The notes below the pieces were generated by a model that had not been told where the DNA came from, did no database searches, and was given only the letters and a program-made list of their open reading frames with translations. Both the position numbers and the translations under genes were made by a program. Shown here one piece after another: positions 22,246-48,925 of a DNA stretch of 64,000 bases. The first letter of the stretch is position 1. Every line of letters begins with the position of its first letter. The stretch is from an uncultured Gemmatimonadaceae bacterium (GTDB taxonomy: Bacteria; Latescibacterota; UBA2968; UBA8231): the NCBI GenBank assembly GCA_964520345.1, contig CAZFMY010000027.1, positions 1,589 through 65,588 on the forward strand. Direction: 5' to 3'.

Positions 22246-22334
22246 CGAAAAAACCTTTCGCCAGAGGTGGGGTGGGCTATATACGGCAAGGGCAGCGCGG
22301 TGTCAAGCGGGGTGAAGCCTTATATTCTCTCACT

Positions 22335-29043: not shown

Positions 29044-29248
29044 ATGGTGCGGGGGGATGAGGGCTTCCCAATCCCCGGTTCATAGCAGGTCTCCAGTTAT
29101 TAGATACAATACCGATGCTCGCCGATATGTGGCGGAAGTTCTCTGTTGGCACTCAGGTTGACAGGTCGTAGTATTGGATTTGGTTTGCACCGGACCATTG
29201 CGTATCTTGCCCCAGACACAGGTTTTCTACCAAGGAGGATTAAACGCT

Positions 29249-30277
29249 ATGAAAGGTCTCTTCAGCCTCGCGCTGGCCCTTGTGGCCAGTGCCGTCTTCG
29301 CCCAGGCCCCATCGGGTGATCCGTCGATCATCGCCAAAGGTGCCGAGCTAGAAGTGCTCTTTGACGACGCCTTTTTCACTGAGGGGCCGGCGGTGGCTCC
29401 AGACGGCTCGGTTTATTTCAGCGATATCACTTTTACATCTGGATCAGTGATGCAGGCTGGTTATATCTGGCGCTACGATCCCGAGACCGGCGAGACCAAG
29501 ATCTATCGATCGCCGAGTGGTATGTCAAACGGTCTCAAATTTGATGCTATGGGTCGCTTGATTGCTGCCGAGGGTGCCGACTTCGGAGGCCGGAGACTGA
29601 CGCGTACGGACTTGAGCACTGGAAAGGCCGAAATCATTGCAGGGCTTTACGAAGGCAAACCCTTCAATGCGCCCAACGATATTTCTATAGATGAGCAAGG
29701 CCGGATCTACTTCAGCGATCCGCGCTATCTCGGTCATGAGCCGATTTATCAGCCGGTGTTCGGGGTTTACCGCATCGATCCCGACGGTTCGATTGAGCGG
29801 ATCATAACCGATGCCGGCAAGCCCAATGGCGTTTGCGTTTCGCCCGACCAGCAGTCGTTCTACGTGGTTAGCAACGACAACGGCAATACCGATACCTTCA
29901 GCGGTGTGCCCGTACACAAAGGTCGGATGGCGCTTTTGGCTTACGATCTCCACGCTGACGGCACGGCGACCTTCCGAGAAGTGCTGGTCGATTATGCTCC
30001 GCAAGATGGTCCGGACGGTTTGGTAGCGGATGTAGATGGAAACCTCTACGTGGCAGTGCGGGATGTGACGCGGCCCGGTATTGTGGTCTATTCGCCTAAG
30101 GGAGAAGAGCTGGCCTATATCCCCACGCCGGAAGTTCCGACCAATGTAGCGTTTGGTCACGGGGAAGACAGCAAGATTCTCTATGTCACCTACGGTGGTG
30201 GCGCGCCACCCGAAAACCCAGGGGTACTGGCCAAGATCAAGGTCGAGAAGGATGGGTACCACCTGCCGGCCAAATAA
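29249..30277 (+). CDS. Secreted SMP-30/gluconolactonase/LRE-like beta-propeller
   Basis: Start at ATG 29249 after AAGGAGGA. Signal peptide MKGLFSLALALVASAVFAQA|P. Family blocks FTEGPAV, SNGL, PNDI and PDGL. Confidence 0.8.
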   Translation: MKGLFSLALALVASAVFAQAPSGDPSIIAKGAELEVLFDDAFFTEGPAVAPDGSVYFSDITFTSGSVMQAGYIWRYDPETGETKIYRSPSGMSNGLKFDAMGRLIAAEGADFGGRRLTRTDLSTGKAEIIAGLYEGKPFNAPNDISIDEQGRIYFSDPRYLGHEPIYQPVFGVYRIDPDGSIERIITDAGKPNGVCVSPDQQSFYVVSNDNGNTDTFSGVPVHKGRMALLAYDLHADGTATFREVLVDYAPQDGPDGLVADVDGNLYVAVRDVTRPGIVVYSPKGEELAYIPTPEVPTNVAFGHGEDSKILYVTYGGGAPPENPGVLAKIKVEKDGYHLPAK

Positions 30278-30280
30278 TAA

Positions 30281-31990
30281 ATGACCGCACTCGACTGGGC
30301 CGTAGTCCTGGTCCTCAACGGCGGCATCGTCGCCTATAGCCTGTTCACCTTCCGCAATAAGGGAGCGAGCTTCGACTGGTACTTAGCGGCTAAGTCGATG
30401 CCCTGGTGGGTGATCGGGCTATCGGCATTTGGCACCGCCGTCGATAGCGGCGACTACGTCGGCATTGTTGGTGGCTCTTATAAGATGGGCCTTTCGCAAC
30501 TGGCGCAGTGGTGGCTGGGTATCGCCGTGGGGTGGGCGGTGCTCAGTTTCTTCGTCATCGTGCCGATGTATCGGTCCGGGGTTTTCACCAATGCCGAGTG
30601 GCTGGAGTTTCGTTTCGGTCCGGCCGCCCGGCTCCTGGCAGTTCTGATCAATATCCAATCGCGGACCAATGTACTGGGCAATATCTTCTTTTCGATGTAT
30701 CTGGTGCTCAATGTCGTTGCCGGGATCGAGGAGAAGACCTGCTGGCTGGTAGTGGTCGGCGTGGCGATCACTTCGGTGCTCTATATCGTGCGCGGTGGCT
30801 TGCGCGCTGGAGTGCTGACCGACGCGTTGCAGAGCATTACGATGATCGTTGCTTCGTTCGTGCTCTGGGGTTTCGTTTATTCGGGTTTGGGGGGATGGGA
30901 CGGGGTGAGAGAGCGGTTGGAAGTGGTAGAGGAGGGGTTGTCCGATACGCTTTTGCACGTGGGTGGTTATTCGCCCGAGGGCGTGCCTGCGTTGTTGGTG
31001 ATCTTCGGTTTTCTGGTGGTCCTGACGACCTATGCGGTGATTAACCAGTACGAGGCCATTCGTTTTTTGGGAGCCCGTTCGGAGTGGGATTTCAAAATGG
31101 CGGCGTTGGTGGCTAGTATTGCCACGGCGATCTGTCTCTTCTTCAATGTCAGTCTGGGGCCGATGGCACGGGCCCAGTTTCCGGGGCTGGAGTTGGTCGA
31201 TCAGGCCTATCCGCTGATGATCAAGGAGTATTTGCCCGCCGGGCTGGTCGGGCTGGTGGTCGCGGGCCTGGTGGCGGCGGGCTATTCGACGTTCGATTCG
31301 ATCGGCATCGGCATTTCCTCGCTTTTTGTTCGCGATGTCTACGCGCGATTTATCGTCAAAAACGGAGACGATGCGCACTACACCAGAGTCGGCCGCATCT
31401 CGGTACCGTTCATCCTGGCGCTGGGCTTTCTCTATGTGCCCTTTCTCGGTGAGAAGGGGATGCTGCTCTTTTATTTGCGATTGGCCGGGGCGATCGCGGT
31501 GCCGCTGATGACGGTGATTCTTATGGGGGTGTTCACGCGAGTGCATCGCGGGACCGGGATCATTGGTCTGCTGGTGGGACTCGGTTACGGGATCTCGGCG
31601 ATCCTGGCCGATTTCAACGAGTGGCCGCTGCCGGTTTGGTATCAGAACACGTGGTGGACCTATTTGTGGAATATAGTGCTGCCAGCAGCTTCGATGCTGC
31701 TGGCATCGAAGCTGATCGATTTGCAGCGCGGACCGGCTTCCGATGAGGAATTACGCGGGCTGGTCTATGCGCGACACGAAGATCCGGTGGCGCTGCGCGC
31801 ATTGATGGGGGGTCGGCTCAAGGCGCTGAAGGGGACCTGGATAGAGCAGACGCTGATCAAGGCGGAGGTGCGGCCGGAGTATCCGTTTGAAGTCGGCCCG
31901 GAGGGCCCGCAGTGGTATTTGCGCCCGGGGTTGTGGATGGGAGTCTATCTGGCGTTAGCGAGCTTTCTGCTCTTTGTGGTCTTGTGGTAA
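30281..31990 (+). CDS. Sodium:solute symporter family (SSF) transporter
   Basis: 569 aa, about 13-14 TM. N-terminus FDWYLAAKSMPWWVIGLSAFGTAVDSGDY is typical of SSF. Confidence 0.85.
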   Translation: MTALDWAVVLVLNGGIVAYSLFTFRNKGASFDWYLAAKSMPWWVIGLSAFGTAVDSGDYVGIVGGSYKMGLSQLAQWWLGIAVGWAVLSFFVIVPMYRSGVFTNAEWLEFRFGPAARLLAVLINIQSRTNVLGNIFFSMYLVLNVVAGIEEKTCWLVVVGVAITSVLYIVRGGLRAGVLTDALQSITMIVASFVLWGFVYSGLGGWDGVRERLEVVEEGLSDTLLHVGGYSPEGVPALLVIFGFLVVLTTYAVINQYEAIRFLGARSEWDFKMAALVASIATAICLFFNVSLGPMARAQFPGLELVDQAYPLMIKEYLPAGLVGLVVAGLVAAGYSTFDSIGIGISSLFVRDVYARFIVKNGDDAHYTRVGRISVPFILALGFLYVPFLGEKGMLLFYLRLAGAIAVPLMTVILMGVFTRVHRGTGIIGLLVGLGYGISAILADFNEWPLPVWYQNTWWTYLWNIVLPAASMLLASKLIDLQRGPASDEELRGLVYARHEDPVALRALMGGRLKALKGTWIEQTLIKAEVRPEYPFEVGPEGPQWYLRPGLWMGVYLALASFLLFVVLW

Positions 31991-32067: not shown

Positions 32068-33252
32068 CTATCCCCCTCTCCGGATTACCTCCAACGTTTC
32101 ATAACAAGCGGCCAGCGGATGGTAGTCTGTTTTCGAAGGCGGGCTTTTCAAGTCATCGTATTTTTGATTGGCCGCGTTGAGAATTCGATACCAGGCGCCG
32201 TATTGGTGATCGACGAAATACCGGTCCGAAAATTCCCATGCCCTGTCGTACCAATCCCAGTAGGTATCGTCCCCCGTTCTCAGGGCCAGAGCGGCGGCGG
32301 CGGCAAAGGTCTCGGAGAGTACCCAGTAGTAGCGGTCGTTGTCTAGGATCTGCCCGTCGGGCGCGAAAGTATAGTGCATGCCTTCCCGCTCTCGGTCCCA
32401 GCTTTTGTCCAGCGCGGTATCGAAAAGGTGCCGGGCTCGGTCGAGGATCCAGGGTGCGGGGCGGTAGCGCTCGAGGATCAGCAACAGCTTAGCCCATTCG
32501 GCGAAGTGACCGGGCAGGTAGCCATAGGGTTTGAAGAGGTTTTTGGGGTCGTCTCGGTTGTAGTCCCAGTCGTGGGTCCAGTCGCTGCGGTAGTGTTCCC
32601 AGATCAGTCCGTCCGATCGATCGGCGAGGTCGATGCAGATACGCTGTGCCAGCAGCTCTGCGCGGTCGAGATACTGGTCTTCCTCGGTGGCTTCATAGGC
32701 GGCCAACATGGCTTCGCACATATGCATATTGGCGTTCTGACCGCGATAGGATGCGATGGCACTCCAATCGCCAGCGGCGATTTCGTCGACATAGAGCTGG
32801 GCGTCTTGTTCCCAAAAGCGTTTTTCCAGCATTTCGTAGAGTTCCGCGGCCAGGGCTGTGGCGCCGTCGATTCCGGCTTTGGCTGCGCCGGCAGCGGCCA
32901 AGAGGACGAAGGCGTGGCCGTAGCAGTGCCGGGTGCCATCTTCTAGTGCGCGGCCTTTTAAAATCCAGGCGAAGCCGCCGTCGGGCTGGCGATGGACGTC
33001 CTGGAGAAAATGGAGTCCGTGGGCGGCGGCCTGGCGATAGTCTGGCTCGTCGAGGGTGATGGTGGCCAGCGCGTAGTTATAGACGAAGCGGCAGGTGCCA
33101 ACGAGGTGTTTGGTCGTCCGGTCATAGATCGAGCCGTCGTCGCGGAGCTGGTTGATATAGCCGCCCAGCTCGTCGTCAATGCAGGTCGGGTGGTAGAAGG
33201 CCATGATGCTAGCGATATGGGCGCGGAGAAAATCGGGGTCGCGGTAGGCCAT
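32068..33252 (-). CDS. AGE-family (N-acylglucosamine 2-epimerase / YihS-like aldose-ketose isomerase) protein
   Basis: 394 aa alpha/alpha-toroid type. Contains HCYGHAFVLLA, NANMHMCEAMLAAYE, WEHY and PGHFAEWAKLL blocks. Confidence 0.8.
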   Translation of the reverse strand: MAYRDPDFLRAHIASIMAFYHPTCIDDELGGYINQLRDDGSIYDRTTKHLVGTCRFVYNYALATITLDEPDYRQAAAHGLHFLQDVHRQPDGGFAWILKGRALEDGTRHCYGHAFVLLAAAGAAKAGIDGATALAAELYEMLEKRFWEQDAQLYVDEIAAGDWSAIASYRGQNANMHMCEAMLAAYEATEEDQYLDRAELLAQRICIDLADRSDGLIWEHYRSDWTHDWDYNRDDPKNLFKPYGYLPGHFAEWAKLLLILERYRPAPWILDRARHLFDTALDKSWDREREGMHYTFAPDGQILDNDRYYWVLSETFAAAAALALRTGDDTYWDWYDRAWEFSDRYFVDHQYGAWYRILNAANQKYDDLKSPPSKTDYHPLAACYETLEVIRRGG

Positions 33253-34857: not shown

Positions 34858-35868
34858 ATGCTCAAGATCAGCAAGGGGTTGGGCAATTTAGCACCGGAGA
34901 CACTGCGCTTCTACCGACAGATCGGAGTCGAGGAGGTCCAGGTGCCGGCGCGTTTCAATACTCGTATCAATCTACGGCCTTTGGTGCCGCCAACGCAAAG
35001 CCAGGCCTTCGGGCCGATGCCGCCAGCCTGGGATGAAGACGAATTGCGGCGGATTTGTGATCATGTGCGCGACTTTGATCTGGAACCGACGACGATCGCC
35101 CTGCCTCTCTCGGGGCGGATTCTGATGGGCGAGGAGGGACGGGATGAGGATCTGGACGACGTGGCCGAGCGGGTGGGGATGGCGGGGAGGGTGGGCCTGG
35201 AGGTATTGACCTGGAATTTTACCGCCTTGCGTGCTTCCGAAGGTTATGCGGCGCAGGGGAAGGCGGGCCGGGGTGGTGCGGATTTGCGCGATTTCGACTA
35301 TGCGCGGATTCGCAATCTGCCGCCTTTAGAAGAACTGGGGTCGTACGGTATGGACGAGATGTGGGAAAGGCTTGAATACTGCTTGCGTCGCATCGTGCCG
35401 GTGGCCGAGTCGGCCGGGGTGCAACTGGCGATGCATCCCAATGATCCGCCGGTGCCCGAATACCGCGGAGTGGCGCAACCACTTTGGGACCTCGATGCGA
35501 TGAAGCGACTGGTCGAGGTCGTCGACAGTCCGTCCAACACCATTTTTTTCGATACGGGAGTAACGACCGAATATGGTGAGGATGCGGTTTCGGCAATCCG
35601 ATATTTCGGGTCGCGGAATCGGATTGGTCTGGTTCATTTCCGCAACGTGCGGGTTGCGGAACCCTATTACAGGTACACCGAAACCTTTATCGACGAGGGT
35701 GAGTGCGATATCGTTGCTTGTATGCGGGCTTTTGCCGCAGTGGGCTACGAGGGCGGAGTTGATCCAGACCACACTCCGGGGATCAGCGGCGATAGCGAAG
35801 AGACTCAGATCGGTTGGGCCTATGCGGTGGGGCAGTTGCGCGCCTTGCGCTTGGCGGCCTACGCCTAA
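34858..35868 (+). CDS. Mannonate dehydratase (UxuA)-like TIM-barrel protein, paralog 2
   Basis: Start at ATG 34858 after AAGGAG. The C-terminal block VHFRNVR....Y.ETFIDEGECDIVACMRAFAAVGYEGGVDPDHTP parallels paralog 1. Confidence 0.65.
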   Translation: MLKISKGLGNLAPETLRFYRQIGVEEVQVPARFNTRINLRPLVPPTQSQAFGPMPPAWDEDELRRICDHVRDFDLEPTTIALPLSGRILMGEEGRDEDLDDVAERVGMAGRVGLEVLTWNFTALRASEGYAAQGKAGRGGADLRDFDYARIRNLPPLEELGSYGMDEMWERLEYCLRRIVPVAESAGVQLAMHPNDPPVPEYRGVAQPLWDLDAMKRLVEVVDSPSNTIFFDTGVTTEYGEDAVSAIRYFGSRNRIGLVHFRNVRVAEPYYRYTETFIDEGECDIVACMRAFAAVGYEGGVDPDHTPGISGDSEETQIGWAYAVGQLRALRLAAYA

Positions 35869-36144
35869 GCTTCTTTGCCACCTATGCGGTCAAGTTGTTG
35901 AAGGAAAGGAGTTTTTTGGTCGAAGGCCTGATCTCGGACCAACTACTTGTTGGTCTGGACCTGCGTGCGGCGATCTAAGCCAGGATCTAAGATCCTTTAC
36001 ATTGCTTGCTCGGATTAATACATTATCGTGCGATTAGCTCTTCGTCGCACTGGTTTCGCAAAGATGACCGAATTGAGCGCTGCTGAATTACGAGTGCTGT
36101 AGAAACAATGAGTTGTGAGTTTTGAGAGTAAGGGCGGGTAGCTC

Positions 36145-36172
36145 TTTTTAAGCGAAGATTTTTTAAGCGAAG
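36145..36172 (+). repeat. Tandem direct repeat 2 x TTTTTAAGCGAAG (15-bp period) upstream of nagB
   Basis: Read directly: 36145..36157 and 36160..36172 are identical 13-mers, 20-47 nt upstream of the nagB ATG. Confidence 0.6.
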
Positions 36173-36191
36173 TCTATTCACTTAGGGAATT

Positions 36192-36932
36192 ATGGCCGGC
36201 GGAATCAAGGTGCGCATCCTCGACGACGAGCAGGCCGTGGCCGGTTTTGCAGCTAAGTTCGTCGTTGAGTTGTTGCGTCGTCGTCCCGATGCCGTGTTGG
36301 GCTTAGCTACTGGTTCTACGCCGGAGCCGACCTACGACGAGTTAGTTCGCTTGCACTGCGAGGAAGGGCTCAGTTTCTCCAAGGTGCGCACTGTCAACCT
36401 CGACGAGTATCTCGGTCTCGATGGGGATCATGAACAGAGCTTTCGCTTCTTTATGCAAAAGCACCTTTTCGGGCATCTGGATATTCGTCCCTGGAATACG
36501 TTTATCTTCGACGGGATGGCTCGAGAACCCGAACAAGAGTGTCTGGCTTTTGAGGCTAAGATTCGCGGGTTGGGAGGGGTTGATCTGTGGCTTTTGGGAC
36601 TGGGTGGCAATGGCCACATCGCTTTTAATGAACCGGGCAGTGCTGCCGGGAGTCGTTCGCGAGTTGTGACACCCAATCCGGAGACCGTTGAGGCCAATAG
36701 CCGCCACTTCGCCGATCCCCGTGAAGTGCCGCGTCGGGGTTTGACCGTGGGAGTGGGGACCATTCTCGACGGGCGCAGTGTCGTGCTTCTAGCTACCGGC
36801 GCCCACAAGGCCGAGGCGGTGGTGCGGGCCGTCGAGGGCCCCCGTTCTGCGGATTGTCCGGCCAGTCTGCTTCAAGACCATCCCGATTGCTTCTTTCTGC
36901 TCGATCGTCCAGCCGCTGCACGGCTATCTTGA
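36192..36932 (+). CDS. nagB: Glucosamine-6-phosphate deaminase
   Basis: 246 aa with LGLATGSTP, NLDEYLGL and LGLGGNGHIAFNEPGS motifs. Confidence 0.9.
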   Translation: MAGGIKVRILDDEQAVAGFAAKFVVELLRRRPDAVLGLATGSTPEPTYDELVRLHCEEGLSFSKVRTVNLDEYLGLDGDHEQSFRFFMQKHLFGHLDIRPWNTFIFDGMAREPEQECLAFEAKIRGLGGVDLWLLGLGGNGHIAFNEPGSAAGSRSRVVTPNPETVEANSRHFADPREVPRRGLTVGVGTILDGRSVVLLATGAHKAEAVVRAVEGPRSADCPASLLQDHPDCFFLLDRPAAARLS

Positions 36933-36942
36933 GGGATCTATC

Positions 36943-38124
36943 GTGATTCTGGTACTCAATTGTGGCTCCTCCTCGCTCAAGTTCAGCCTCTTTGACAAAG
37001 AAGAGCGAACGCGTCTATCCGGTCTGATTGAACGGATCGGCGCAGACGAATCCGAACTGGTGCTTATTCGAGGTGGGGAAGAAGAACGGCGCGGTGTCCG
37101 GGCCGTCGATCATGCCGAGGCCATGGATCGGATGCACGAGGTGTTTTGCGAGATTTACCAGGATGCGAGTGCGATCGAAGCGATCGGTCATCGGATCGTC
37201 CACGGTGGCGAGCGATTTGTCGAGGCTACGCTAATCACTCCTGAGGTTGAAGAGGGCATCGCCGCTTGTGCCGCACTGGCGCCGCTGCACAATCCGGCAC
37301 ATTTGGCCGGGATTCGCGCTGCCCGCGAGTACTTTGCTGCCCTGCCCCATATTGCCGTCTTCGACACTGCCTTTCACCAGACTCTGCCCGAGCAGGCCTA
37401 TCTTTATGCGCTGCCCTACGAACTCTACGAGCAAGACGGTATCCGTCGCTACGGTTTTCATGGGACTTCGCATCGCTACGTGGCTCAGCGGGCGGCCGTG
37501 CTTCTGCAAGTCGAATCCTTTACCGGTATCACCTGTCATTTGGGCAACGGGGCTTCTTTGGCCGCGATCAGCAAAGGTCGGTCGGTCGATACCTCGATGG
37601 GATTGACGCCGTTGGAGGGCGTTGCGATGGGCACGCGCTCGGGAGATGTGGATCCGGCTGTGGTTTTTCATTTGGCGCGGCAGCGTGGTATGGAGATAGA
37701 TGAGATCGAGCAGCTGCTCAATAATGAGAGCGGTTTACTCGGGCTCTCGGGCTCTTCGCAGGACATGCGAGAGATCGAAGAGGCTGCCCTTGGAGGTGAC
37801 CAGAGATCGCGGCTGGCGCTGGAAGTTTTCTCTTACCGGGTACGCAAATACATCGGGGCTTATTTCGCGGTGCTGGGTCGGATTGACGCTTTGGTCTTCA
37901 CTGGTGGTATCGGCGAGAAAAGCGCTTCGGTCCGCCGTTGGGTCGTCCAGGGCTTGGAGGGGCTGGGTCTCGAATTGGACCGGGCTCGCAATCGCGCAGT
38001 CTCTGGTGGAGAGGGCGAGATCTCCGCTTTCGATTCGAGAGTGAGAGTGCTGGTGGTGCCGACCAATGAGGAGTTGGTTATTGCTCAAGAAGTTCGGGAG
38101 GTCATCTCTGACGGGGGGCAGTGA
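36943..38124 (+). CDS. ackA: Acetate kinase
   Basis: 393 aa, GTG start. Motifs: ILVLNCGSSSLKFSLFD, GHRIVHGG, AFHQT, RRYGFHGTSH and FTGGIGE. Confidence 0.9.
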   Translation: MILVLNCGSSSLKFSLFDKEERTRLSGLIERIGADESELVLIRGGEEERRGVRAVDHAEAMDRMHEVFCEIYQDASAIEAIGHRIVHGGERFVEATLITPEVEEGIAACAALAPLHNPAHLAGIRAAREYFAALPHIAVFDTAFHQTLPEQAYLYALPYELYEQDGIRRYGFHGTSHRYVAQRAAVLLQVESFTGITCHLGNGASLAAISKGRSVDTSMGLTPLEGVAMGTRSGDVDPAVVFHLARQRGMEIDEIEQLLNNESGLLGLSGSSQDMREIEEAALGGDQRSRLALEVFSYRVRKYIGAYFAVLGRIDALVFTGGIGEKSASVRRWVVQGLEGLGLELDRARNRAVSGGEGEISAFDSRVRVLVVPTNEELVIAQEVREVISDGGQ

Positions 38125-38128
38125 GGCT

Positions 38129-40468
38129 ATGACGGATCGAGGTGCGCTGACGAGTGTTGAACGCAGGGCTGTAAAGGCTTCGCCCTTTGCCGAACTCTAT
38201 CCTCCGGCCGAAAGAATCAAGACCATCGTAGTCAAGAATTTTCCGGCTTTGGGAAAATTGGCGGCGATGCGTTTTGTCGAATGGGTACAGGATCATCCCG
38301 GGGGTGTGGTCTCGCTGCCCACGGGCAAGACTCCGGAGCATTTCATCCGCTGGGTCCAACGATTGACGCAAAATTGGGACCAAGCCGAAGTTCGCAATGA
38401 ACTTGAGCTTGCGGGTATTGACCCGGGGCGCAAGCCGGATCTGCGCACTTTGCATTTTGTGCAGATCGACGAGTTCTACCCGATCGAACCTCGCCAGGAC
38501 AATAGCTTTTACGCGTATGTCAACCGTTTCTACGTGGATGGTTTCGGGTTAGACCCAGCCAAGGCCTCGTTAATCAACTGCACCGAGATCGGTTTGGCGG
38601 CTGGTCAGACGCTGAATGAGGTCTGGCCGAGTGGCGAGGTAGATCTTTCGCTGCGCTACCGCGCAGCCCGCACTGCGCTCGAGCAGACGCAGCAAGATCT
38701 GTTGGAGAGAATCGATCAGTGGTGTCAGGAATACGAAGAGCACATCCGCGCGCTGGGTGGTATCGGCTTTTTTTTAGGGGGGATTGGCCCCGATGGGCAT
38801 ATCGGATTCAACGTCCGGGGCTCGGACCATTTTTCGACGACGCGGCTGACGGAGGTAAACTACGAGACCCAGGCTGCTGCTGCTGCCGATCTGGGTGGGA
38901 TCGAAGTCGCGCGCAAGCGGCTGGTCATCACCATCGGCCTGGGCACGATTACCAGCAATCCCGATAGCTGTGCCCTAATTATCGCTGCTGGCGAAGCCAA
39001 AGCAGGCATCGTCGCTGCTGCGGTTGAGGAGGCCGCCGATATTCGCCATCCGGCTTCGGTGTTGCACCGCTTGCCCGGGGCTCGCTTCTATGTCACCCAG
39101 GGTGCGGCCAAGTTGCTGAAGGAGCGAGAGCGGGTGCTCTTTGCGCAGCAGAAAGAAATCGCTGACGCAAGCGTGGAAAAAATCCTTGTCGATCTGGCCT
39201 TTCGCTTGGGCAAGAGGGTGATTGACCTGAGCGAGGTGGATTTTGCGCAGGATGACTTTGCGACGGAATTGCTGCAGCGACGGCCAGAAAAGATCGATGC
39301 CCTGGTGGGACTGGTGCGGGATCGACTGATGAACAAGATCGGGCGCGGAACCCAGACTTTGTCGGGAACGCGCTTTTTGCATACCGAGCCTCATCACGAC
39401 GATCTGATGTTGGGATATCTTCCCTATATCGTCCGTCACGTTCGCGATGCGACTAACGTTCATTATTTCGTTTGCTTCACGGGCGGTTTTACTGCGGTGA
39501 CAAATGATTTCATTCTCGCCCATCTCGATCGGTTGAAGCAGTTTCTCAAGACTGCTGAGTGTGCCGAACTGCTGGCGGAGGGTTATTTCGATCCCGGTTA
39601 TGAAATCGGCCGCAACCGCGATATCTGGCAGTACCTCGACGGGGTCGCTGCCAACGACCAGCAACTGCGCGACGAGGGGATGGCGCGGCGCTTCTTACGC
39701 AATCTCATCGAGCTATTCGGCAAGGAGGGGGTCGAAGTAAATACCGGGGAGCTGGAGTCTTATTTTACGCAGCATTACCCTGGACAGAAAGACGCCCCGG
39801 AGGTGCAGGCGCTCAAGAGTATGTGCCGCGAGTTTGAAGCGGAATGTATCTGGGGATACTTTGGCTGGGACTGCGCCAATGTCAAGCACCTGCGTCTCGG
39901 CTTTTACACCGGTGATATCTTCACCGGGGAACCGACGGTAGAAGACGATGTGCTGCCGGTGGTGAACTTGCTCGAACGAATCCAGCCCGATGTGGTCAGT
40001 GTTGCACTCGATCCGGAGGCCAGTGGTCCAGATACTCATTACAAGGTGTTACAGGCGGTCACTGAGGCCCTGCGCCGCTACGAGCGGCAGAGCGGTCGTT
40101 CCGATCTGAAGATCTGGGGGTATCGCAATGTTTGGTTCCGCTTCGAGCCGAGCGAGGCCGATATCTTCGTGCCGGTTTCACTCAATATGCTTTCGGTGAT
40201 GCACAGCGCCTTTATGAATACATTCATTTCCCAGCGCGATGCCTCCTTCCCGTCTTACGAGTACGATGGTCCTTTTTCCGAATTGGCTCGACAGGTGCAG
40301 GTAGATCAGTACCAGAAGATCAAAACCTGCCTGGGGCGCGAGTGGTTTCAGGAGCATTCCAGCCCGCTGATCCGCGCTACTCGAGGCCTGGTTTTTCTCA
40401 AAGAGATGGATCTCAGTGAGTTCTACGAGCACAGCCGGGTGCTTAGACAAACCTTTGAAAACAGCTGA
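38129..40468 (+). CDS. Bidomain protein: NagB/6-phosphogluconolactonase-like sugar isomerase domain and LmbE/PIG-L-like deacetylase domain
   Basis: Start at ATG 38129. The N-terminal domain has SLPTGKTPE and GIGPDGHIGFNVRGS. The C-terminal domain has the PIG-L zinc motif PHHDD and a later DPEASGPDTH. Confidence 0.75.
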   Translation: MTDRGALTSVERRAVKASPFAELYPPAERIKTIVVKNFPALGKLAAMRFVEWVQDHPGGVVSLPTGKTPEHFIRWVQRLTQNWDQAEVRNELELAGIDPGRKPDLRTLHFVQIDEFYPIEPRQDNSFYAYVNRFYVDGFGLDPAKASLINCTEIGLAAGQTLNEVWPSGEVDLSLRYRAARTALEQTQQDLLERIDQWCQEYEEHIRALGGIGFFLGGIGPDGHIGFNVRGSDHFSTTRLTEVNYETQAAAAADLGGIEVARKRLVITIGLGTITSNPDSCALIIAAGEAKAGIVAAAVEEAADIRHPASVLHRLPGARFYVTQGAAKLLKERERVLFAQQKEIADASVEKILVDLAFRLGKRVIDLSEVDFAQDDFATELLQRRPEKIDALVGLVRDRLMNKIGRGTQTLSGTRFLHTEPHHDDLMLGYLPYIVRHVRDATNVHYFVCFTGGFTAVTNDFILAHLDRLKQFLKTAECAELLAEGYFDPGYEIGRNRDIWQYLDGVAANDQQLRDEGMARRFLRNLIELFGKEGVEVNTGELESYFTQHYPGQKDAPEVQALKSMCREFEAECIWGYFGWDCANVKHLRLGFYTGDIFTGEPTVEDDVLPVVNLLERIQPDVVSVALDPEASGPDTHYKVLQAVTEALRRYERQSGRSDLKIWGYRNVWFRFEPSEADIFVPVSLNMLSVMHSAFMNTFISQRDASFPSYEYDGPFSELARQVQVDQYQKIKTCLGREWFQEHSSPLIRATRGLVFLKEMDLSEFYEHSRVLRQTFENS

Positions 40469-40686
40469 AATGAGAGGGACCGAGGTGCAGTGTGGAGTGT
40501 GCGTCCCATAACCCGTGTAATTCCAATTTATAATCAGCGTCTGCATATCTATCGTTGTAAGCTCACCGCCTTTACGCAGTGGTTGTTTCGATGAATCGGC
40601 GCAGAGGATGGCCAGAGTTAGTGATAGGGGATCTAGCCTCCAGCGTCGTTCCGGGTTGGTTTTTGACTTGTCATTGTGGGATTAAA

Positions 40687-41526
40687 ATGAGAATCGCCGT
40701 TACCGGTAGCAGCGGCCGTATTGGCCGTTATATAGTACGCGAATTGGTTGCTGCAGGTCACGAGGTCATTGGACTCGATCTCCGATCCCAGGCGGGGAGC
40801 CTGCAGGTGGACCTGACCGAAAGCGGCCAGGTTTATGAGGGGTTAGCGGGTTCTCAGGCTGTCGTCCATATGGGTGCCTGGGCCAATTCCGGACTCGTAC
40901 CCGATACGCGCACGTACTCCGATAATGTCGCCGGCACGTTCAATGTTTTCCAGGCCGCCGCCGACCTGGGCATCCGCCGAGTCGTCTCGGCGTCGAGCAA
41001 TCAGGTATATGGTTTTGCCGGTGCACCGCCCCTCTACGTCCCGGTCGACGAGGACCACCCCTGTCGTCCACTTAATTGCTACGCGCTTTCGAAGATGGCC
41101 GGCGAGCAGGCAGCTGACTATTTCTCCGCGAATAAAAGGTTGGAAATTCTCTCGTTTAGGATTCTCGGCACCCGTACTCCGGCAGAGATCCCTGGTGATA
41201 TGGCCAGGATTGCCGCCGACCCGGCGAGTGGCTGCAAATTGTTGTGGACACGGACTGATGCGCGCGATGTGGCCGTGGCTTGCCGACTGGCTGTGGAGGC
41301 GGATCGGGTGGAATCGGGTCCGTACAATATTGCCGGACCGCGCGTGGTACTGGAAACCCCTGTGCTGGATCTGGTCGCAGAGCATTTTGGGGACCACACC
41401 GAGATTCGCGGTATTCTTGAGACGGTTGATTCGCCGTTGAGTTGTGCGAAGGCCCAGCGAGTTTTTGGTTATCGGCCGCGTTATGCCTGGTCGTTGGGTG
41501 TTGAGCATCCAGAGGAGTTGGAGTGA
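40687..41526 (+). CDS. NAD-dependent epimerase/dehydratase (SDR)
   Basis: Start at ATG 40687 (MRIAVTGSSGRIGRYIV). Contains YALSK (YxxxK). Confidence 0.8.
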   Translation: MRIAVTGSSGRIGRYIVRELVAAGHEVIGLDLRSQAGSLQVDLTESGQVYEGLAGSQAVVHMGAWANSGLVPDTRTYSDNVAGTFNVFQAAADLGIRRVVSASSNQVYGFAGAPPLYVPVDEDHPCRPLNCYALSKMAGEQAADYFSANKRLEILSFRILGTRTPAEIPGDMARIAADPASGCKLLWTRTDARDVAVACRLAVEADRVESGPYNIAGPRVVLETPVLDLVAEHFGDHTEIRGILETVDSPLSCAKAQRVFGYRPRYAWSLGVEHPEELE

Positions 41527-45050: not shown

Positions 45051-46445
45051 GTGCACACGCGACCCAATATTGTCTTCATCCTCAGCGACGACCAGGGGCC
45101 CTGGGCGGCTGGTTGTTATGGCAACGAGGAGATTTGCACTCCTGCTATAGACCGCATCGCCCGGACGGGAATGCGCTTCGACAATTTTTTCGTCGCCACT
45201 CCGGTTTGCTCGCCGAGCCGCGCAACCTTTTTGACCGGGCGAATTGCCTCGCAACACGGGGTGCATGATTGGATTCGCGAAGGCAATATGGGCCAGAATG
45301 TTGCCGCTTATCTCGAGGGGGAGATAGCCTATACTGATATTCTCGCCGAACACGGCTGGATTTGCGGCTTGAGCGGCAAGTGGCATCTGGGCCACAGTCA
45401 GCTCGTACAACACGGTTTTTCGCATTGGTACACTCACCAGCATGGAGGTGGGCCCTACAACGACGCGCCGATGGTGCGCGACGGAGAGCCGGTGACGGAG
45501 CCGGGCTATGTGACGACGGCGATCACGGATGATGCGCTTGCCTTTATCGATCGCCATGCCGGTTGCGATGTCCCCTTTTACTTGAGTGTGCACTATACCG
45601 CGCCACACAGTCCGTGGACCGGGCATCCGCAGGATATTGTCGATGGGTATGACGAGTGCGCATTCGCTTCCTGCCCGCAGGAGGAGATCCATCCGTGGGC
45701 AGTGGGACACCAGCTGAGCGAGAGTTGTCTGGGCAAGCGCGAGATGCTCAAAGGCTATTTCGCGGCGGTGACGGCGATGGATAGGGATATTGGGCGGATA
45801 CTGGATAAGCTGGAGGAGAAGGGCCTGCGCGAGGATACGCTGGTGGTCTTCGTCAGCGATAATGGCTTCAGCTGTGGCCACCACGGTTTCTGGGGCAAGG
45901 GCAATGGCACCTATCCACCGAATATGTACGAGAACTCGATCAAGGTGCCCTTTGTGATCAGCCAGCCCGGGCGGGTGCCTGCAGGGAATGTGGAAGGTGC
46001 AATGGTCAGCGCCTACGACTTTATGCCGACCCTGCTGGACTATCTCGGGTTGCCGCTGCCCGCAGGGATCAACCTGCCCGGAGAGAGCGTGCTGCCACTC
46101 TGGTTAGGGCAGGGAGATACCGGTCGGGATGAGGTGGTGATTTACGACGAGTACGGCTCGACGCGGATGGTGCGCACCGAGGAGTGGAAATATGTGCATC
46201 GCTATCCAGACGGGCCTTGTGAGCTCTACGATTTGGTCAACGACCCGGACGAGCGTGTGAATCTGGCGGGTGATCCAGAGCAGCGTGTGCGGATCAATGA
46301 GTTGTACGCGCGCTTGGAAGAGTGGTTTGAGCGCTTTGTAGTACAAGGTCGTGATGGTCGCGATTTTGCCGTTACGGGTAAAGGACAACTCAGGCCCGTG
46401 GGTGGGAAGTGGGAAGGGAATGATCCATCTTTTGCAGAGGACTAG
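45051..46445 (+). CDS. Sulfatase (formylglycine type), leaderless
   Basis: GTG start. N-terminus MHTRPNIVFILSDDQG, active-site box C-S-P-S-R-ATFLTGR, and ELYDLVNDPDE. Confidence 0.85.
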   Translation: MHTRPNIVFILSDDQGPWAAGCYGNEEICTPAIDRIARTGMRFDNFFVATPVCSPSRATFLTGRIASQHGVHDWIREGNMGQNVAAYLEGEIAYTDILAEHGWICGLSGKWHLGHSQLVQHGFSHWYTHQHGGGPYNDAPMVRDGEPVTEPGYVTTAITDDALAFIDRHAGCDVPFYLSVHYTAPHSPWTGHPQDIVDGYDECAFASCPQEEIHPWAVGHQLSESCLGKREMLKGYFAAVTAMDRDIGRILDKLEEKGLREDTLVVFVSDNGFSCGHHGFWGKGNGTYPPNMYENSIKVPFVISQPGRVPAGNVEGAMVSAYDFMPTLLDYLGLPLPAGINLPGESVLPLWLGQGDTGRDEVVIYDEYGSTRMVRTEEWKYVHRYPDGPCELYDLVNDPDERVNLAGDPEQRVRINELYARLEEWFERFVVQGRDGRDFAVTGKGQLRPVGGKWEGNDPSFAED

Positions 46446-47392: not shown

Positions 47393-47426
47393 GATCTGAG
47401 CGGAAGCAGGTGCCATCGCTCAGATC
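47393..47426 (-). terminator. Hairpin overlapping the sulfatase stop codon; possible terminator
   Basis: 10-bp perfect inverted repeat gatctgagcg / cgctcagatc with a 14-nt loop. On the minus strand it is followed by GTTTTG, so the T-tract is weak. Confidence 0.35.
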
Positions 47427-48925
47427 TGGTCTTCGTCCAGGTAGTCCATCTCCGGCTTCAGGTTCCAGCGGATCGAGTCCGGTGGTTGCACATTGCGGCC
47501 CCATTCGGCGAGGATCGGTCGCTCGGCGCGCAGCTGGGCCATGCGTTCGCAGATTTGCGCGGGGTCCCAGCCTTCGAGAACTTCGGCTTTGAGCTTTTCA
47601 ACGGTGCCCTGGTGTGCTGGATCGGCGGCGAGGTCATTGAGCTCACGTGGATCGGCGGCGAGGTCAAAGAGCTGGCAGGGCTGTCCGTGGTAGTAGTTGA
47701 GCTTGAAGTTGTCGCGGCGGACCATGCGCTGGAAGATGCCTTCATCGGGGAAGGGACCGCCGGCGCCGGCGGCGTCCTGGCAGAACTCGGAGAAGGCGAC
47801 ATTGTCCCATTCGGTATTTTGCGGGTCGGTCAAGAGCGACAGCAGGCTGCGCCCCCGCGAGTGGGGCAGAGCCGGGCAGCCGAGGGCGTCGATCATCGTG
47901 GCATTGAGATCGAGCGAAGATATGACCTTGTCGCAACGGGTGCCTTCGGGCAGGTGGCCGGGCCAGGCGAGGATCGCTGGAACTTTGGCCGAGTCTTCAT
48001 AAAAGGTCTGCTTCCACCACAGTCCGTGCTCGCCGACCTGCTCACCGTGGTCGGACGAATAGACGATAAGGGTGTTTTCCTCGAGTCCGTTCTCGCGCAA
48101 CGCGGTGAATATCTGACCGATCATCACGTCCATGCGATAGACCAATGCCCAGTAGGCGGCGCGGGCGCGACGGATCTCCTCCTCGCTGACCTCCTCTATT
48201 TCGCAGGCGGTGCGCCAGAGTTGGATATGTGGGTGCAAGTGGTCGCCGAAGGATTCGTGGTTTTTCGGCGGGGTGATTTTTTCGTAGTAGCGACGGTAGT
48301 CTTCGAGTCGGGCGACGAAGGGCTGGTGTGGAAGCATGAAACCGACCGAGAGCGAGAAGGGGTCGGTCGATTCTCCGGCGCGCCTCTGGACCCCGAGGCG
48401 ATTGAGATAGTTGAGAGTAGCGGCGGTGACGTCTTCGTCGTGGACCTGGTAGGCGCTCTGGCCGTGGCCAGAGAGGCGCAGGCTGACCCTCCCCGGGCCG
48501 GCGGTGCCCGAGAGCTGGCCGTGGTTGACACCGGAGCCGCCCATTTGATTGGGGCCGTGGTCGCCAACCAGGCGCTCGGCATAACCGTGCAGCTGATCGG
48601 GGCCTACCGAGTGCATACGGCCGATCAGCGCGGGTCGGTAGCCGCCAGCGCCCATGGCATGGGCGAAAGTGGGAATTCCCGAATCGAGGATATGGGAGTT
48701 GGTCCAAACTTCATTTTCGCAGGGGTAGCGGCCCGAGAGCATCGACATCCGCGAGGGTACGCAGATTGGTGAGGGGCAGTATGTGTTGTCGAGGACTACC
48801 CCGCTTGCGGCCAGAGCATCGAGGTGGGGGGTCTCAACCAGGGGATCGCCGTAACAACCAGTGACGAAGGGGTTGTGCTGGTCGGAGTGGATATAGAGCA
48901 GGTTGGGACGGGTGTTTTTGCTCAT
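47420..48925 (-). CDS. Sulfatase (formylglycine type), leaderless
   Basis: 501 aa. N-terminus MSKNTRPNLLYIHSDQHN, active-site box C-V-P-S-R-MSMLSGR, and LFDLAADPRELNDLAADP. Confidence 0.85.
   Translation of the reverse strand: MSKNTRPNLLYIHSDQHNPFVTGCYGDPLVETPHLDALAASGVVLDNTYCPSPICVPSRMSMLSGRYPCENEVWTNSHILDSGIPTFAHAMGAGGYRPALIGRMHSVGPDQLHGYAERLVGDHGPNQMGGSGVNHGQLSGTAGPGRVSLRLSGHGQSAYQVHDEDVTAATLNYLNRLGVQRRAGESTDPFSLSVGFMLPHQPFVARLEDYRRYYEKITPPKNHESFGDHLHPHIQLWRTACEIEEVSEEEIRRARAAYWALVYRMDVMIGQIFTALRENGLEENTLIVYSSDHGEQVGEHGLWWKQTFYEDSAKVPAILAWPGHLPEGTRCDKVISSLDLNATMIDALGCPALPHSRGRSLLSLLTDPQNTEWDNVAFSEFCQDAAGAGGPFPDEGIFQRMVRRDNFKLNYYHGQPCQLFDLAADPRELNDLAADPAHQGTVEKLKAEVLEGWDPAQICERMAQLRAERPILAEWGRNVQPPDSIRWNLKPEMDYLDEDQI

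What the first reader, a model, noticed from the sequence alone, without database searches (positions are those of the whole stretch)
36192..40468. nagB-ackA-(NagB-like+LmbE) operon: amino-sugar module without NagA and with an embedded acetate kinase
Seen: a canonical short NagB, then AckA (10-nt gap), then a 779-aa protein (4-nt gap). That last protein combines a NagB/Pgl-like domain with a PIG-L/LmbE zinc-deacetylase-like domain (PHHDD ... DTH). No amidohydrolase-type nagA or pta is present in the window. In the long protein the NagB motif reads DGHIGFNVRGS, with Val at 38813..38815 where NagB has the Glu of FNEP. Established: NagA releases acetate from GlcNAc-6P, and PIG-L enzymes deacetylate GlcNAc-containing substrates. 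Inference: the LmbE-like domain may replace NagA and AckA may capture the released acetate as acetyl-phosphate. The isomerase-like domain with E-to-V may bind rather than deaminate.
Basis: partly seen in the sequence, partly recalled or inferred. Interest (0 to 1): 0.58.

Follow-up and report, generated by a model that had tools for sequence, protein, structure and literature searches.

The report
Amino-sugar fusion enzyme with dedicated acetate kinase
Three tightly packed genes encode an ordinary sugar-amine deaminase, an extra acetate kinase and a large untested two-domain enzyme that, in this bacterial group, seems to stand in for the usual enzymes that process N-acetylglucosamine and may even supply the cell-wall amino sugar.

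Summary
The window holds nagB (36192-36932), ackA (36943-38124) and a 779-aa NagB-like + LmbE-like fusion, here called LONG (38129-40468). The gaps are 10 and 4 nt, and Val replaces the NagB Glu at 38813-38815.

LONG is a divergent sister of NCBIfam PRK02122. It has more than 6,700 relatives in many phyla, and I found no characterised member.

- **NagA replacement: partly supported.** The HXDD+H metal motif is intact. In 140 Latescibacterota genomes, 12/48 LONG-positive genomes have a NagA-like gene, against 73/92 LONG-negative ones. Closed congeners have no NagA at all. However, this genome has a nagA operon on another contig, and in Spirochaetota LONG coexists with NagA and NagB.
- **ackA link: adjacency conserved, function unproven.** This ackA is a canonical but accessory second copy. 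It lies immediately upstream of LONG in 16 of 17 family genomes that carry it (5 genera). Classical pta is absent, but a PduL-type enzyme is present.
- **"Binds rather than deaminates": not supported.** The E-to-V change is family-wide, the other aligned catalytic residues are kept, and LONG is the only NagB homologue in 19 congeners.

The genus also lacks GlmS yet has MurA, so LONG may also supply GlcN-6P. The scan found the same operon earlier in another genome (e1-5218049).

The parts
36192..36932 (+). nagB, canonical short glucosamine-6-phosphate deaminase (246 aa)
   Evidence: TIGR00502 254.8 bits, above the 236.9 cut-off. PDB 2bkv 222.8 bits, with NLDEY and NGHIAFNEPGS aligned.
36943..38124 (+). 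ackA, a canonical acetate kinase (393 aa) that is an accessory second copy in this genome
   Evidence: PF00871 507.7 bits. PDB 2iir 422.7 bits and 1g99 412 bits. Only 37% identical to the genus-wide copy on contig C9. Orthologues lie immediately upstream of LONG in 16 of 17 family genomes.
38129..40468 (+). LONG: 779-aa fusion of a NagB-like and an LmbE/PIG-L-like domain; a divergent sister of PRK02122
   Evidence: NF002557 198.2 bits, below the 384 cut-off. AF2 model pLDDT 93.1, pTM 0.89. Aligns end to end with a true PRK02122 protein at 26% identity, E 5e-34.
38129..39133 (+). NagB-fold domain of LONG (residues ~1-335), with an insertion at roughly residues 120-195
   Evidence: Foldseek hits to 1ne7, 3hn6 and 2bkv, E ~1e-14, TMt 0.8-0.89. 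TGKTPE, D114, D222, H224, R239 and K291 are conserved.
38813..38815 (+). Val229 codon, at the position of the Glu in the NagB FNEP motif (E. coli Glu148)
   Evidence: Alignments to NagB structures. This position is never Glu in 35 family members.
39359..40468 (+). LmbE/PIG-L-fold deacetylase-like domain of LONG (residues ~411-779), with a helical insertion and a C-terminal extension
   Evidence: Foldseek hits to 5bmo (E 2.4e-4) and 4xm0 (E 1.4e-3). The profile of this domain hits diacetylchitobiose deacetylases 8bgn and 3we7 at E ~2e-3.
39392..39403 (+). H422-H423-D424-D425: the HXDD part of the LmbE metal and general-base motif
   Evidence: Aligned to EPHPDD of archaeal diacetylchitobiose deacetylases and to SPHPDD of PRK02122. 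Invariant in A2.
40037..40039 (+). His637, the inferred third metal ligand (GPDTH)
   Evidence: Aligned to the last His of DPHGTH in a true PRK02122 protein. Invariant in A2. Metal binding itself is inferred.
29174..31990 (+). SMP-30/gluconolactonase-like gene and sodium:solute symporter, the conserved upstream neighbours of LONG in the genus
   Evidence: Pfam SGL and SSF. Order SGL-SSF-[nagB]-LONG seen in about 17 of 20 congeneric loci.

Best explanation
nagB, ackA and LONG form one transcription unit for amino-sugar metabolism.

**LONG.** It is a two-domain enzyme. The C-terminal LmbE-fold domain most likely removes the N-acetyl group from GlcNAc-6-phosphate, or a very similar N-acetylhexosamine phosphate, and releases acetate. 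The N-terminal NagB-fold domain interconverts GlcN-6-P and fructose-6-P plus ammonia. In this Latescibacterota family LONG takes the place of NagA. In many congeners it also takes the place of the short NagB and sits where GlmS is missing, so it is the hub of the GlcNAc-6P / GlcN-6P / Fru-6P node.

**AckA.** It is a dedicated extra acetate kinase inherited together with LONG. It links the acetyl unit to acetyl-phosphate, and through the genome's PduL-type enzyme to acetyl-CoA. Whether it runs towards acetate capture or towards ATP formation is not known.

**Shown:** gene order, folds, motif conservation, phyletic patterns and the conserved adjacency.

**Inferred:** the substrates, both catalytic activities and the direction of AckA.
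For: **Architecture and motifs**
- The AF2 model is confident and matches NagB and LmbE-like structures.
- HXDD+H is conserved. Its definition comes from PMC4101496.
- The NagB residues Asp, Asp-Gly-His, Arg, Lys and the TGKTP loop are conserved.

**Phyletic pattern in 140 genomes of the phylum**
- A NagA-like gene occurs in 12/48 LONG-positive genomes and 73/92 LONG-negative ones.
- In genus g19 the three LONG-positive genomes lack NagA, and the three NagA-positive genomes lack LONG.
- Closed genomes G001, G005, G012, G018 and G122 have no NagA homologue.
- In 19 congeners LONG is the only hit to TIGR00502.
- GlmS is absent from the genus, 0/27, while MurA is present.

**Neighbours elsewhere point to GlcNAc metabolism**
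- Recurrent neighbours are nagB, a ROK regulator plus ROK kinase, GH18 and SSF transporters.

**ackA**
- It lies immediately upstream of LONG in 16/17 genomes, at 49-75% identity, across 5 genera.
- PduL is present.
- In sister genera a gene for an acetyl-CoA-condensing-enzyme-like protein lies between nagB and ackA.
Against: - No member of this family or of PRK02122 has been assayed, as far as my literature searches show.
- G000 itself has two NagA-like genes, one of them in a nagA-GH3-glucokinase operon.
- In a Spirochaetota order LONG coexists with NagA (8/10) and canonical NagB (7/10), and with GlmS in the one genome of that order that was checked (G143).
- nagA sits next to LONG in L084 and L089, so LONG is not simply redundant with NagA.
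- According to PMC4101496, known LmbE enzymes act on GlcNAc-containing substrates; that these carry the substituent at C1 and are not 6-phosphates is my own reading from memory.
- The Glu that contacts the catalytic His in E. coli NagB (PMC4008608) is missing.
- The phyletic counts are dominated by one genus and are not independent.
- Most congeners have lost ackA from this position.
Confidence: 0.55

Rival explanations
1. LONG is an additional amino-sugar enzyme with its own substrate. Candidates are free GlcNAc or chitobiose (as for the archaeal diacetylchitobiose deacetylases), GalNAc-6P or ManNAc-6P. On this reading it is not a NagA/NagB equivalent, and the anticorrelation with NagA in Latescibacterota is lineage history.
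For: - LONG coexists with NagA, NagB and GlmS in Spirochaetota and other phyla.
- It is a divergent neighbour of nagA in L084 and L089.
- G000 has nagA elsewhere.
- The closest solved LmbE relatives by sequence profile are diacetylchitobiose deacetylases.
- The N-domain scores far below the NagB cut-offs.
Against: - An Arg and a Lys of NagB are conserved in LONG; they are phosphate ligands in NagB by my memory of the E. coli structure, which points to a 6-phospho sugar.
- Closed genomes have LONG but no NagA, no short NagB and no GlmS, yet have MurA.
- NagA and LONG are complementary within a single genus, g19.
Confidence: 0.25
2. LONG mainly works anabolically. In GlmS-less cells its NagB-like domain aminates Fru-6P to GlcN-6P, and the deacetylase half feeds salvaged GlcNAc-6P into the same pool. 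It would then be a housekeeping supplier of cell-wall amino sugar rather than a catabolic enzyme.
For: - GlmS is absent from the genus, 0/27, while MurA is present.
- LONG is universal in the genus, 27/27, and often stands as a single gene with variable neighbours.
- Of the 17 genomes in the phylum without any NagB-family gene, 14 have GlmS. Of the 123 with one, 23 have GlmS.
- A NagB that works anabolically is known in Giardia (PMC4281351).
Against: - The Akkermansia NagB cannot aminate under physiological conditions, and that organism is instead a GlcNAc auxotroph (PMC5902328). The same could hold here.
- LONG coexists with GlmS in 4 of 5 genomes from other phyla.
- In this window it sits among catabolic genes: sulfatases, a symporter and nagB.
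Confidence: 0.2
3. The ackA next to LONG has no mechanistic tie to deacetylation. It is simply the fermentative, ATP-yielding acetate kinase, co-regulated with a sugar-catabolic locus and inherited with it.
For: - AckA is fully canonical.
- Most congeners do without it at this position.
- The pathway acetyl-CoA to acetyl-P to acetate is complete with PduL.
- The conserved adjacency could stem from a single ancestral arrangement.
Against: - It is a second copy beside a genus-wide AckA.
- In 16/17 genomes it lies within roughly 25-110 nt of LONG, although sequence identity falls to 49%.
- In sister genera an acetyl-CoA-condensing-enzyme-like gene joins the same operon.
Confidence: 0.4
4. One reading: the NagB-like domain of LONG has lost catalysis through the E-to-V change and only binds the sugar phosphate. 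Deamination is left to the short NagB encoded upstream.
For: - Glu148 contacts the catalytic His143 in E. coli NagB (PMC4008608).
- A short canonical nagB is encoded two genes upstream.
- The N-domain is highly diverged.
Against: - 19 congeners have no short NagB at all.
- Residues aligned to NagB Asp72, Asp141 and His143 and to an Arg and a Lys of NagB are kept across the family.
- Glu148 is not conserved in the active Giardia enzyme (PMC4281351).
Confidence: 0.1

Closest known systems
NCBIfam NF002557 / PRK02122 'glucosamine-6-phosphate deaminase-like protein' (~620-660 aa, e.g. Bacteroides BT_0258)
   Same: Same two-domain order, a NagB fold followed by an LmbE fold. LONG aligns end to end with a true member (26% identity, E 5e-34). 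The HXDD+H motif is shared. BT_0258 is induced with GlcNAc/mucin and is treated as a NagB isozyme (PMC13634575).
   Different: LONG scores 198 bits against a cut-off of 384, and other LONG-family members score 188-222 bits. It is about 130 aa longer because of insertions in both domains. FNEP is changed to FNV. DPHGTH is changed to GPDTH, so the first His is lost. I found no assayed member of PRK02122 either.
NagB, glucosamine-6-phosphate deaminase (E. coli, B. subtilis, human GNPDA)
   Same: Same fold (TMt 0.8-0.89). The TG-TP loop, the DE(F/Y) Asp, DGH, an Arg and a Lys are conserved in the alignment.
   Different: The Glu of FNEP is missing. There is an insertion of about 60-80 aa. LONG is fused to a deacetylase-like domain. 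It scores below the TIGR00502 and PF01182 cut-offs.
LmbE-like superfamily (MshB, BshB, PIG-L, and the archaeal diacetylchitobiose deacetylases Tk-Dac, Ph-Dac and Pf-Dac)
   Same: Rossmann-like fold. It has the HXD1D2 + H metal motif with the Asp general base (PMC4101496). The chitin-pathway precedent of an LmbE enzyme deacetylating GlcNAc units applies.
   Different: The spacer between ligands 2 and 3 is 211 residues, against 97-148 in known members (PMC4101496). The Pfam score is below the cut-off. The proposed substrate is a 6-phosphate, which no characterised LmbE enzyme is known to use (from memory).
NagA, GlcNAc-6-phosphate deacetylase (amidohydrolase superfamily)
   Same: The proposed reaction is the same. 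The two occur in complementary genomes within the phylum.
   Different: Unrelated fold and metal site. This would be non-orthologous displacement, not family membership. G000 keeps NagA-like genes elsewhere.
GlmS-less, GlcNAc-dependent Akkermansia muciniphila (PMC5902328)
   Same: A peptidoglycan-making bacterium without GlmS whose only Fru-6P/GlcN-6P enzyme belongs to the NagB family.
   Different: Akkermansia has a short canonical NagB and also NagA. Here the only candidate in many genomes is the fusion protein.

Membership tests
NagB (TIGR00502) - short gene 36192-36932 | Score above the curated cut-off, plus the catalytic motifs (DEY Asp; GHIAFNEP) | tested here: met
   254.8 bits against a 236.9 cut-off. 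NLDEY and NGHIAFNEPGS align to 2bkv and 1ne7.
Acetate kinase (PF00871 / TIGR00016) - 36943-38124 | Full-length match above the cut-off and close similarity to solved acetate kinases | tested here: met
   507.7 bits, 498.9 bits against a 293.4 cut-off, 2iir 422.7 bits and 1g99 412 bits.
PRK02122 / NF002557 - LONG | Whole-protein score at or above 384 bits | tested here: not met
   198.2 bits. A true member from G026 scores 863 bits.
PRK02122 / NF002557 - LONG | Architecture: NagB domain followed by an LmbE-like domain | tested here: met
   Foldseek hits to both folds. End-to-end alignment with a true member.
NagB family - N-domain of LONG | Profile score above the cut-off (TIGR00502 236.9; PF01182 27) | tested here: not met
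   88.8 bits and 16.3-18.9 bits.
NagB family - N-domain of LONG | NagB fold with the catalytic Asp (E. coli Asp72) and the Asp-Gly-His (Asp141, His143) | tested here: met
   TMt 0.8-0.89. D114, D222 and H224 are invariant in A2 and aligned to NagB structures. The E. coli residue numbers are from memory and PMC4008608.
NagB family - N-domain of LONG | Glu of the FNEP motif (E. coli Glu148), which contacts His143 | tested here: not met
   Val229 in LONG. The position is V/I/M/C/T/L/Q/S/P/D in 35 family members and never Glu.
LmbE-like / PIG-L (PF02585) - C-domain of LONG | Pfam score above the 28.2-bit cut-off | tested here: not met
   19.0-21.2 bits; the match is stretched over residues 420-647.
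LmbE-like / PIG-L - C-domain of LONG | HXD1D2 + H metal-binding motif (PMC4101496) | tested here: met
   H422-H423-D424-D425 aligns to EPHPDD of 8bgn and 3we7. H637 aligns to the last His of DPHGTH in PRK02122. All are invariant in A2. Metal binding was not tested.
LmbE-like / PIG-L - C-domain of LONG | Spacer of 97-148 residues between ligands 2 and 3 (PMC4101496) | tested here: not met
   211 residues (425 to 637), caused by a helical insertion seen in the model.
LmbE-like / PIG-L - C-domain of LONG | Deacetylase activity on a GlcNAc-containing substrate | not testable with these tools
   Needs an enzyme assay.

The most novel reading that the evidence does not exclude
In Latescibacterota that lack GlmS, NagA and short NagB, the ~780-aa fusion would be the only enzyme at the GlcNAc-6P / GlcN-6P / Fru-6P node. 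It would then be a housekeeping enzyme that supplies cell-wall amino sugar, either by a GlmS-independent amination of Fru-6P or by deacetylating salvaged GlcNAc-6P. Its co-inherited acetate kinase, joined in sister genera by an isopropylmalate-synthase-like condensing enzyme, would form a dedicated branch that recycles the released acetyl group into acetyl-CoA.
Probability: 0.25. Interest if true: 0.75.

Novelty: new variant of a known kind. Interest (0 to 1): 0.56.

Why it matters
The ~780-aa family has thousands of members across Latescibacterota, Planctomycetota, Spirochaetota, Ignavibacteria, Calditrichota, Gemmatimonadota and other phyla. It is auto-annotated as plain "glucosamine-6-phosphate deaminase". 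I found no assayed member of it or of its sister family PRK02122.

If the LmbE half really is a GlcNAc-6P deacetylase, metabolic reconstructions that score amino-sugar and chitin use by the presence of nagA are wrong for many uncultured polysaccharide degraders.

The absence of GlmS in about three quarters of the sampled Latescibacterota, together with LONG or NagB as the only route to GlcN-6P, bears on whether these bacteria are amino-sugar auxotrophs. That is useful for attempts to culture them.

The conserved pairing with a dedicated acetate kinase is an unusual and testable link between sugar deacetylation and acetyl-phosphate metabolism.

Tried and rejected
- **Pfam at default threshold** gave nothing for LONG. 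Only sub-threshold hits appeared at E 10.
- **The search for related loci with the 35-sequence alignment** failed because it had no conserved stretch. It was repeated with 15 sequences.
- **PDB sequence search with whole LONG** found only NagB chains. A C-domain profile was needed to reach the LmbE-type deacetylases, and it aligned only the first motif. The third ligand is therefore assigned through the PRK02122 alignment, not through a solved structure.
- **A universally conserved operon partner** across 80 loci from many phyla was not found. No neighbour occurred in more than 9 of 76 loci.
- **Phosphoketolase as the acetyl-P source** was rejected: no XFP_N match.
- **Classical Pta** was rejected: no TIGR00651 or PF01515 match.
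- **Promoter and terminator scan** of 35700-40800 gave nothing beyond chance.
- **AckA as a disguised sugar kinase** was considered because ROK kinases sit next to LONG in spirochaetes. I rejected it because AckA is a near-canonical acetate kinase.
- **AGE-family neighbour as a GlcNAc 2-epimerase** was considered. It scores better as a D-mannose-isomerase-like protein, below cut-off.
- **Literature searches** found no biochemical study of the fusion family.

Full report
**What is in the sequence**

- **nagB** (36192-36932, 246 aa) is canonical. It scores 254.8 bits on TIGR00502, above the 236.9 cut-off. NLDEY and NGHIAFNEPGS align to solved NagB structures.
- **ackA** (36943-38124, 393 aa) is a canonical acetate kinase. 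It scores 507.7 bits on PF00871, 498.9 bits on TIGR00016, and 412-423 bits to the Thermotoga and Methanosarcina enzymes.
- **The third gene** starts at the ATG at 38129, preceded by GAGG, and gives 779 aa. An upstream ATG at 38066 would give 800 aa, but homologues begin at the 38129 Met.

The gaps are 10 and 4 nt, so co-transcription is the simple reading. A consensus scan found no promoter or terminator above chance inside the unit. Val229, at codon 38813-38815, sits where NagB has the Glu of FNEP.

**The long protein (LONG)**

- Pfam recognises neither half above threshold.
- NCBIfam NF002557 (PRK02122, "glucosamine-6-phosphate deaminase-like protein") matches at 198 bits, below its 384-bit cut-off.
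- An AlphaFold model built on 35 homologues is confident: pLDDT 93.1, pTM 0.89.
- Foldseek matches residues ~1-335 to NagB structures (E ~1e-14, target TM 0.8-0.89). It matches the C-terminal part to LmbE-like enzymes: LnmX 5bmo (E 2.4e-4) and the P. furiosus diacetylchitobiose deacetylase 4xm0 (E 1.4e-3).
- A genuine PRK02122 protein from a related genome (616 aa, 863 bits) aligns with LONG from end to end at 26% identity, E 5e-34.

That alignment shows that LONG is the same architecture with insertions in both domains. FNEPGS has become FNVRGS, and DPHGTH has become GPDTH. LONG is therefore a divergent sister family of PRK02122, not a member.

The family is large. More than 6,700 proteins of about 780 aa were found, with 293 representatives at E <= 1e-30. 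They come from Latescibacterota, Gemmatimonadota, Calditrichota, KSB1, Planctomycetota, Ignavibacteria, Spirochaetota, Bacteroidota, Armatimonadota and others. The window's organism is a Candidatus Latescibacterota MAG, judged from the record titles of its congeners.

**Active sites**

*Deacetylase half.* The defining LmbE motif is HXD1D2 + H (PMC4101496).
- LONG has H422-H423-D424-D425, which aligns to EPHPDD of archaeal diacetylchitobiose deacetylases.
- H637 aligns to the last His of the PRK02122 HXXH.
- All of these residues are invariant among 15 homologues down to 39% identity.
- The ligand spacer is 211 residues instead of 97-148, because of a helical insertion.
- The first His of HXXH is replaced.

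*Isomerase half.*
- The TGKTPE loop, D114 (the DEF/Y Asp), D222-G-H224, R239 and K291 are conserved and align to NagB. The roles of these residues in E. coli NagB are from memory.
- Position 229 is never Glu in 35 family members, so the E-to-V change is a family trait and not a lesion.
- In E. coli NagB, Glu148 contacts the catalytic His143 in the R state and swings to the allosteric site in the T state (PMC4008608).
- Glu148 is listed among the residues not conserved in the catalytically active, mainly anabolic Giardia enzyme (PMC4281351).
- Its loss therefore does not argue for an inactive domain.

**Is NagA missing?**

In the window, yes. In the genome, no.
- G000 has NagA-like genes on C45 (222 bits, cut-off 225.65) and C25 (201.7 bits).
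- The C45 copy lies in a nagA-GH3-glucokinase-family operon.

The lineage tells another story. Among 140 genomes of the phylum at >=85% completeness:
- LONG occurs in 48 and a NagA-like gene (E <= 1e-40) in 85.
- NagA occurs in 12/48 LONG-positive genomes and 73/92 LONG-negative ones.
- In the window's genus, LONG is in 27/27 genomes and NagA in 2/27. Those two belong to the same small subclade as G000.
- Five closed single-contig congeners have no NagA homologue at all, with best hits about 21 bits.
- In genus g19, three genomes have LONG and no NagA, and three have NagA and no LONG.
- Families f2 and f4 have NagA in 46/50 genomes and LONG in 0/50.

These counts are not phylogenetically independent, but the within-genus complementarity is telling.

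Against a simple replacement:
- In a Spirochaetota order LONG is in 9/10 genomes, NagA above cut-off in 8/10, and canonical NagB in 7/10.
- nagA is a divergent neighbour of LONG in two spirochaete loci.

**Is the isomerase half needed?**
- In 19 congeners the only TIGR00502 hit is LONG itself.
- GlmS is absent from G000 and four closed congeners, and from 0/27 genomes of the genus. Only 37/140 genomes of the phylum have it.
- Within family f1, the genera with GlmS are the ones without LONG and without canonical NagB.
- Phylum-wide, 14 of the 17 genomes with no NagB-family gene have GlmS, against 23 of the 123 with one.
- MurA is present above cut-off, so UDP-GlcNAc is needed.
- Canonical GlmU was not found in 13 congeners. 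The GlmM-like mutases score below cut-off. The route downstream of GlcN-6P is therefore unclear.

Either these bacteria salvage amino sugars, as GlmS-less Akkermansia does (PMC5902328), or a NagB-type domain aminates Fru-6P. In both cases LONG is the only candidate at this node in many genomes. Outside the phylum LONG coexists with GlmS in 4 of 5 genomes.

**Acetate kinase**
- The window's ackA is a second copy, 37% identical to a copy on C9. The C9 copy is the one shared at 80-81% identity by five closed congeners, and those congeners lack an orthologue of the window's ackA.
- Within the genus, ackA lies between nagB and LONG only in G000, G015, G016 and G023. Five genomes have nagB directly next to LONG. 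About ten have symporter-LONG with neither gene.
- At family level the picture reverses. This AckA paralogue occurs in 17/63 genomes across five genera, at 49-75% identity.
- Comparing its coordinates with those of LONG shows it immediately upstream of LONG in 16 of the 17. In the 17th, LONG was not detected.
- The order is nagB-ackA-LONG in genus g14.
- In L057 a 466-aa isopropylmalate/homocitrate-synthase-like gene lies between nagB and ackA. A gap of matching size (1.5-2.7 kb) separates nagB and ackA in g16 and g17 genomes, but that gap was not annotated there.
- In L096 the same gene lies between nagB and LONG, with no ackA.

The adjacency is therefore ancestral, long maintained, and secondarily lost in most of the window's genus.

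Classical Pta and phosphoketolase are absent. A PduL-type phosphotransacylase is present at 217.7 bits, so acetate, acetyl-P and acetyl-CoA can be interconverted. Whether AckA captures the released acetate or makes ATP during amino-sugar fermentation cannot be decided from sequence.

**Context**
- In the genus, the conserved upstream partners of LONG are an SMP-30/gluconolactonase-like gene and a sodium:solute symporter.
- Elsewhere the recurrent neighbours are nagB (9/76 loci), a ROK regulator plus ROK kinase (about 8 loci), a DUF4954/DUF6819 protein (8), SSF transporters (7), SGSH-type sulfatases (7) and GH18 (4). These point to GlcNAc and chitin-type metabolism.
- The window itself is a polysaccharide-utilisation neighbourhood with sulfatases and sugar oxidoreductases.

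**Verdict**

The best reading is a bifunctional amino-sugar-6-phosphate deacetylase/deaminase that displaces NagA in this lineage, and often NagB as well, and that sits where GlmS is missing. It is paired with a dedicated acetate kinase. The activities are inferred. The coexistence with NagA and NagB in other phyla keeps a distinct-substrate rival alive.

The scan met the same operon earlier in another genome (e1-5218049) and reached a similar reading. Both points were re-tested here and both hold in different lineages.

Noticed in passing
whole genome G000 and phylum (not in window): GlmS (TIGR01135) is missing from 103 of 140 Latescibacterota genomes, including closed ones, while MurA is present. 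GlmS presence is nearly complementary to the presence of any NagB-family gene.
   Followed up: partly
genus of G000 (13 genomes): No canonical GlmU (TIGR01173) above cut-off, and the GlmM-like mutases score only 194-217 bits against a 447 cut-off. The route from GlcN-6P to UDP-GlcNAc in this lineage is unclear.
   Followed up: no
L110:12903-14894 (-), also L060, L083, L084, L096, L114: A ~663-aa DUF4954 + DUF6819 protein with a left-handed beta-helix signature recurs next to nagB and near LONG in 8 loci from several phyla. Function unknown. The fold recalls the GlmU acetyltransferase domain (from memory).
   Followed up: no
L096:8509-9894 (+), L057:7428-8828 (+): A 461-466-aa distant relative of homocitrate/isopropylmalate/citramalate synthases lies between nagB and ackA/LONG in sister genera. 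It scores about 118-130 bits, far below the cut-offs.
   Followed up: partly
G000:C9:15470-16618 (L134:8468-9649): The genus-wide acetate-kinase-family gene is the more divergent copy (314 bits on PF00871 against 507 for the window copy). It sits beside an enolase-superfamily (MR_MLE) gene and an alpha/beta hydrolase.
   Followed up: no
G000:C63:16115-18166: A weak NagB-like gene (139 bits, one in-frame TAA reported) lies next to a weak NagA-like gene (124 bits). This may be a second, divergent amino-sugar pair. Similar weak NagB-like genes occur in G015, G016 and G023.
   Followed up: no
window 38066-38128: The public protein collection holds this gene as an 800-aa product starting at 38066, which overlaps ackA by 59 nt. 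Homologues and the GAGG before 38129 favour the 779-aa start.
   Followed up: yes
distant family members P0145, P0150, P0151, P0153, P0156, P0195, P0202: Some distant LONG-family proteins have hydrophobic, signal-peptide-like N-termini, and several lack the catalytic Asp of the NagB-like domain (E/S/T instead). This hints at a secreted or non-deaminating subfamily.
   Followed up: no
window 45051-46445 (+), 47420-48925 (-): Two sulfatases carry the SGSH_C (N-sulphoglucosamine sulphohydrolase) C-terminal domain near the operon. Similar sulfatases recur near LONG in 7 loci elsewhere.
   Followed up: no
window 32068-33252 (-): The AGE-family gene scores better as D-mannose-isomerase-like (248.9 bits) than as N-acylglucosamine 2-epimerase (79 bits). 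Both are below the cut-offs.
   Followed up: no
window 1-64000: GC skew is positive in every 2-kb bin (0.04-0.24) and most genes are on the + strand, which fits a leading-strand location.
   Followed up: no
window 22272-24458 (+): A 728-aa protein has a DUF455 domain only in its first ~280 residues. The remainder is unannotated.
   Followed up: no
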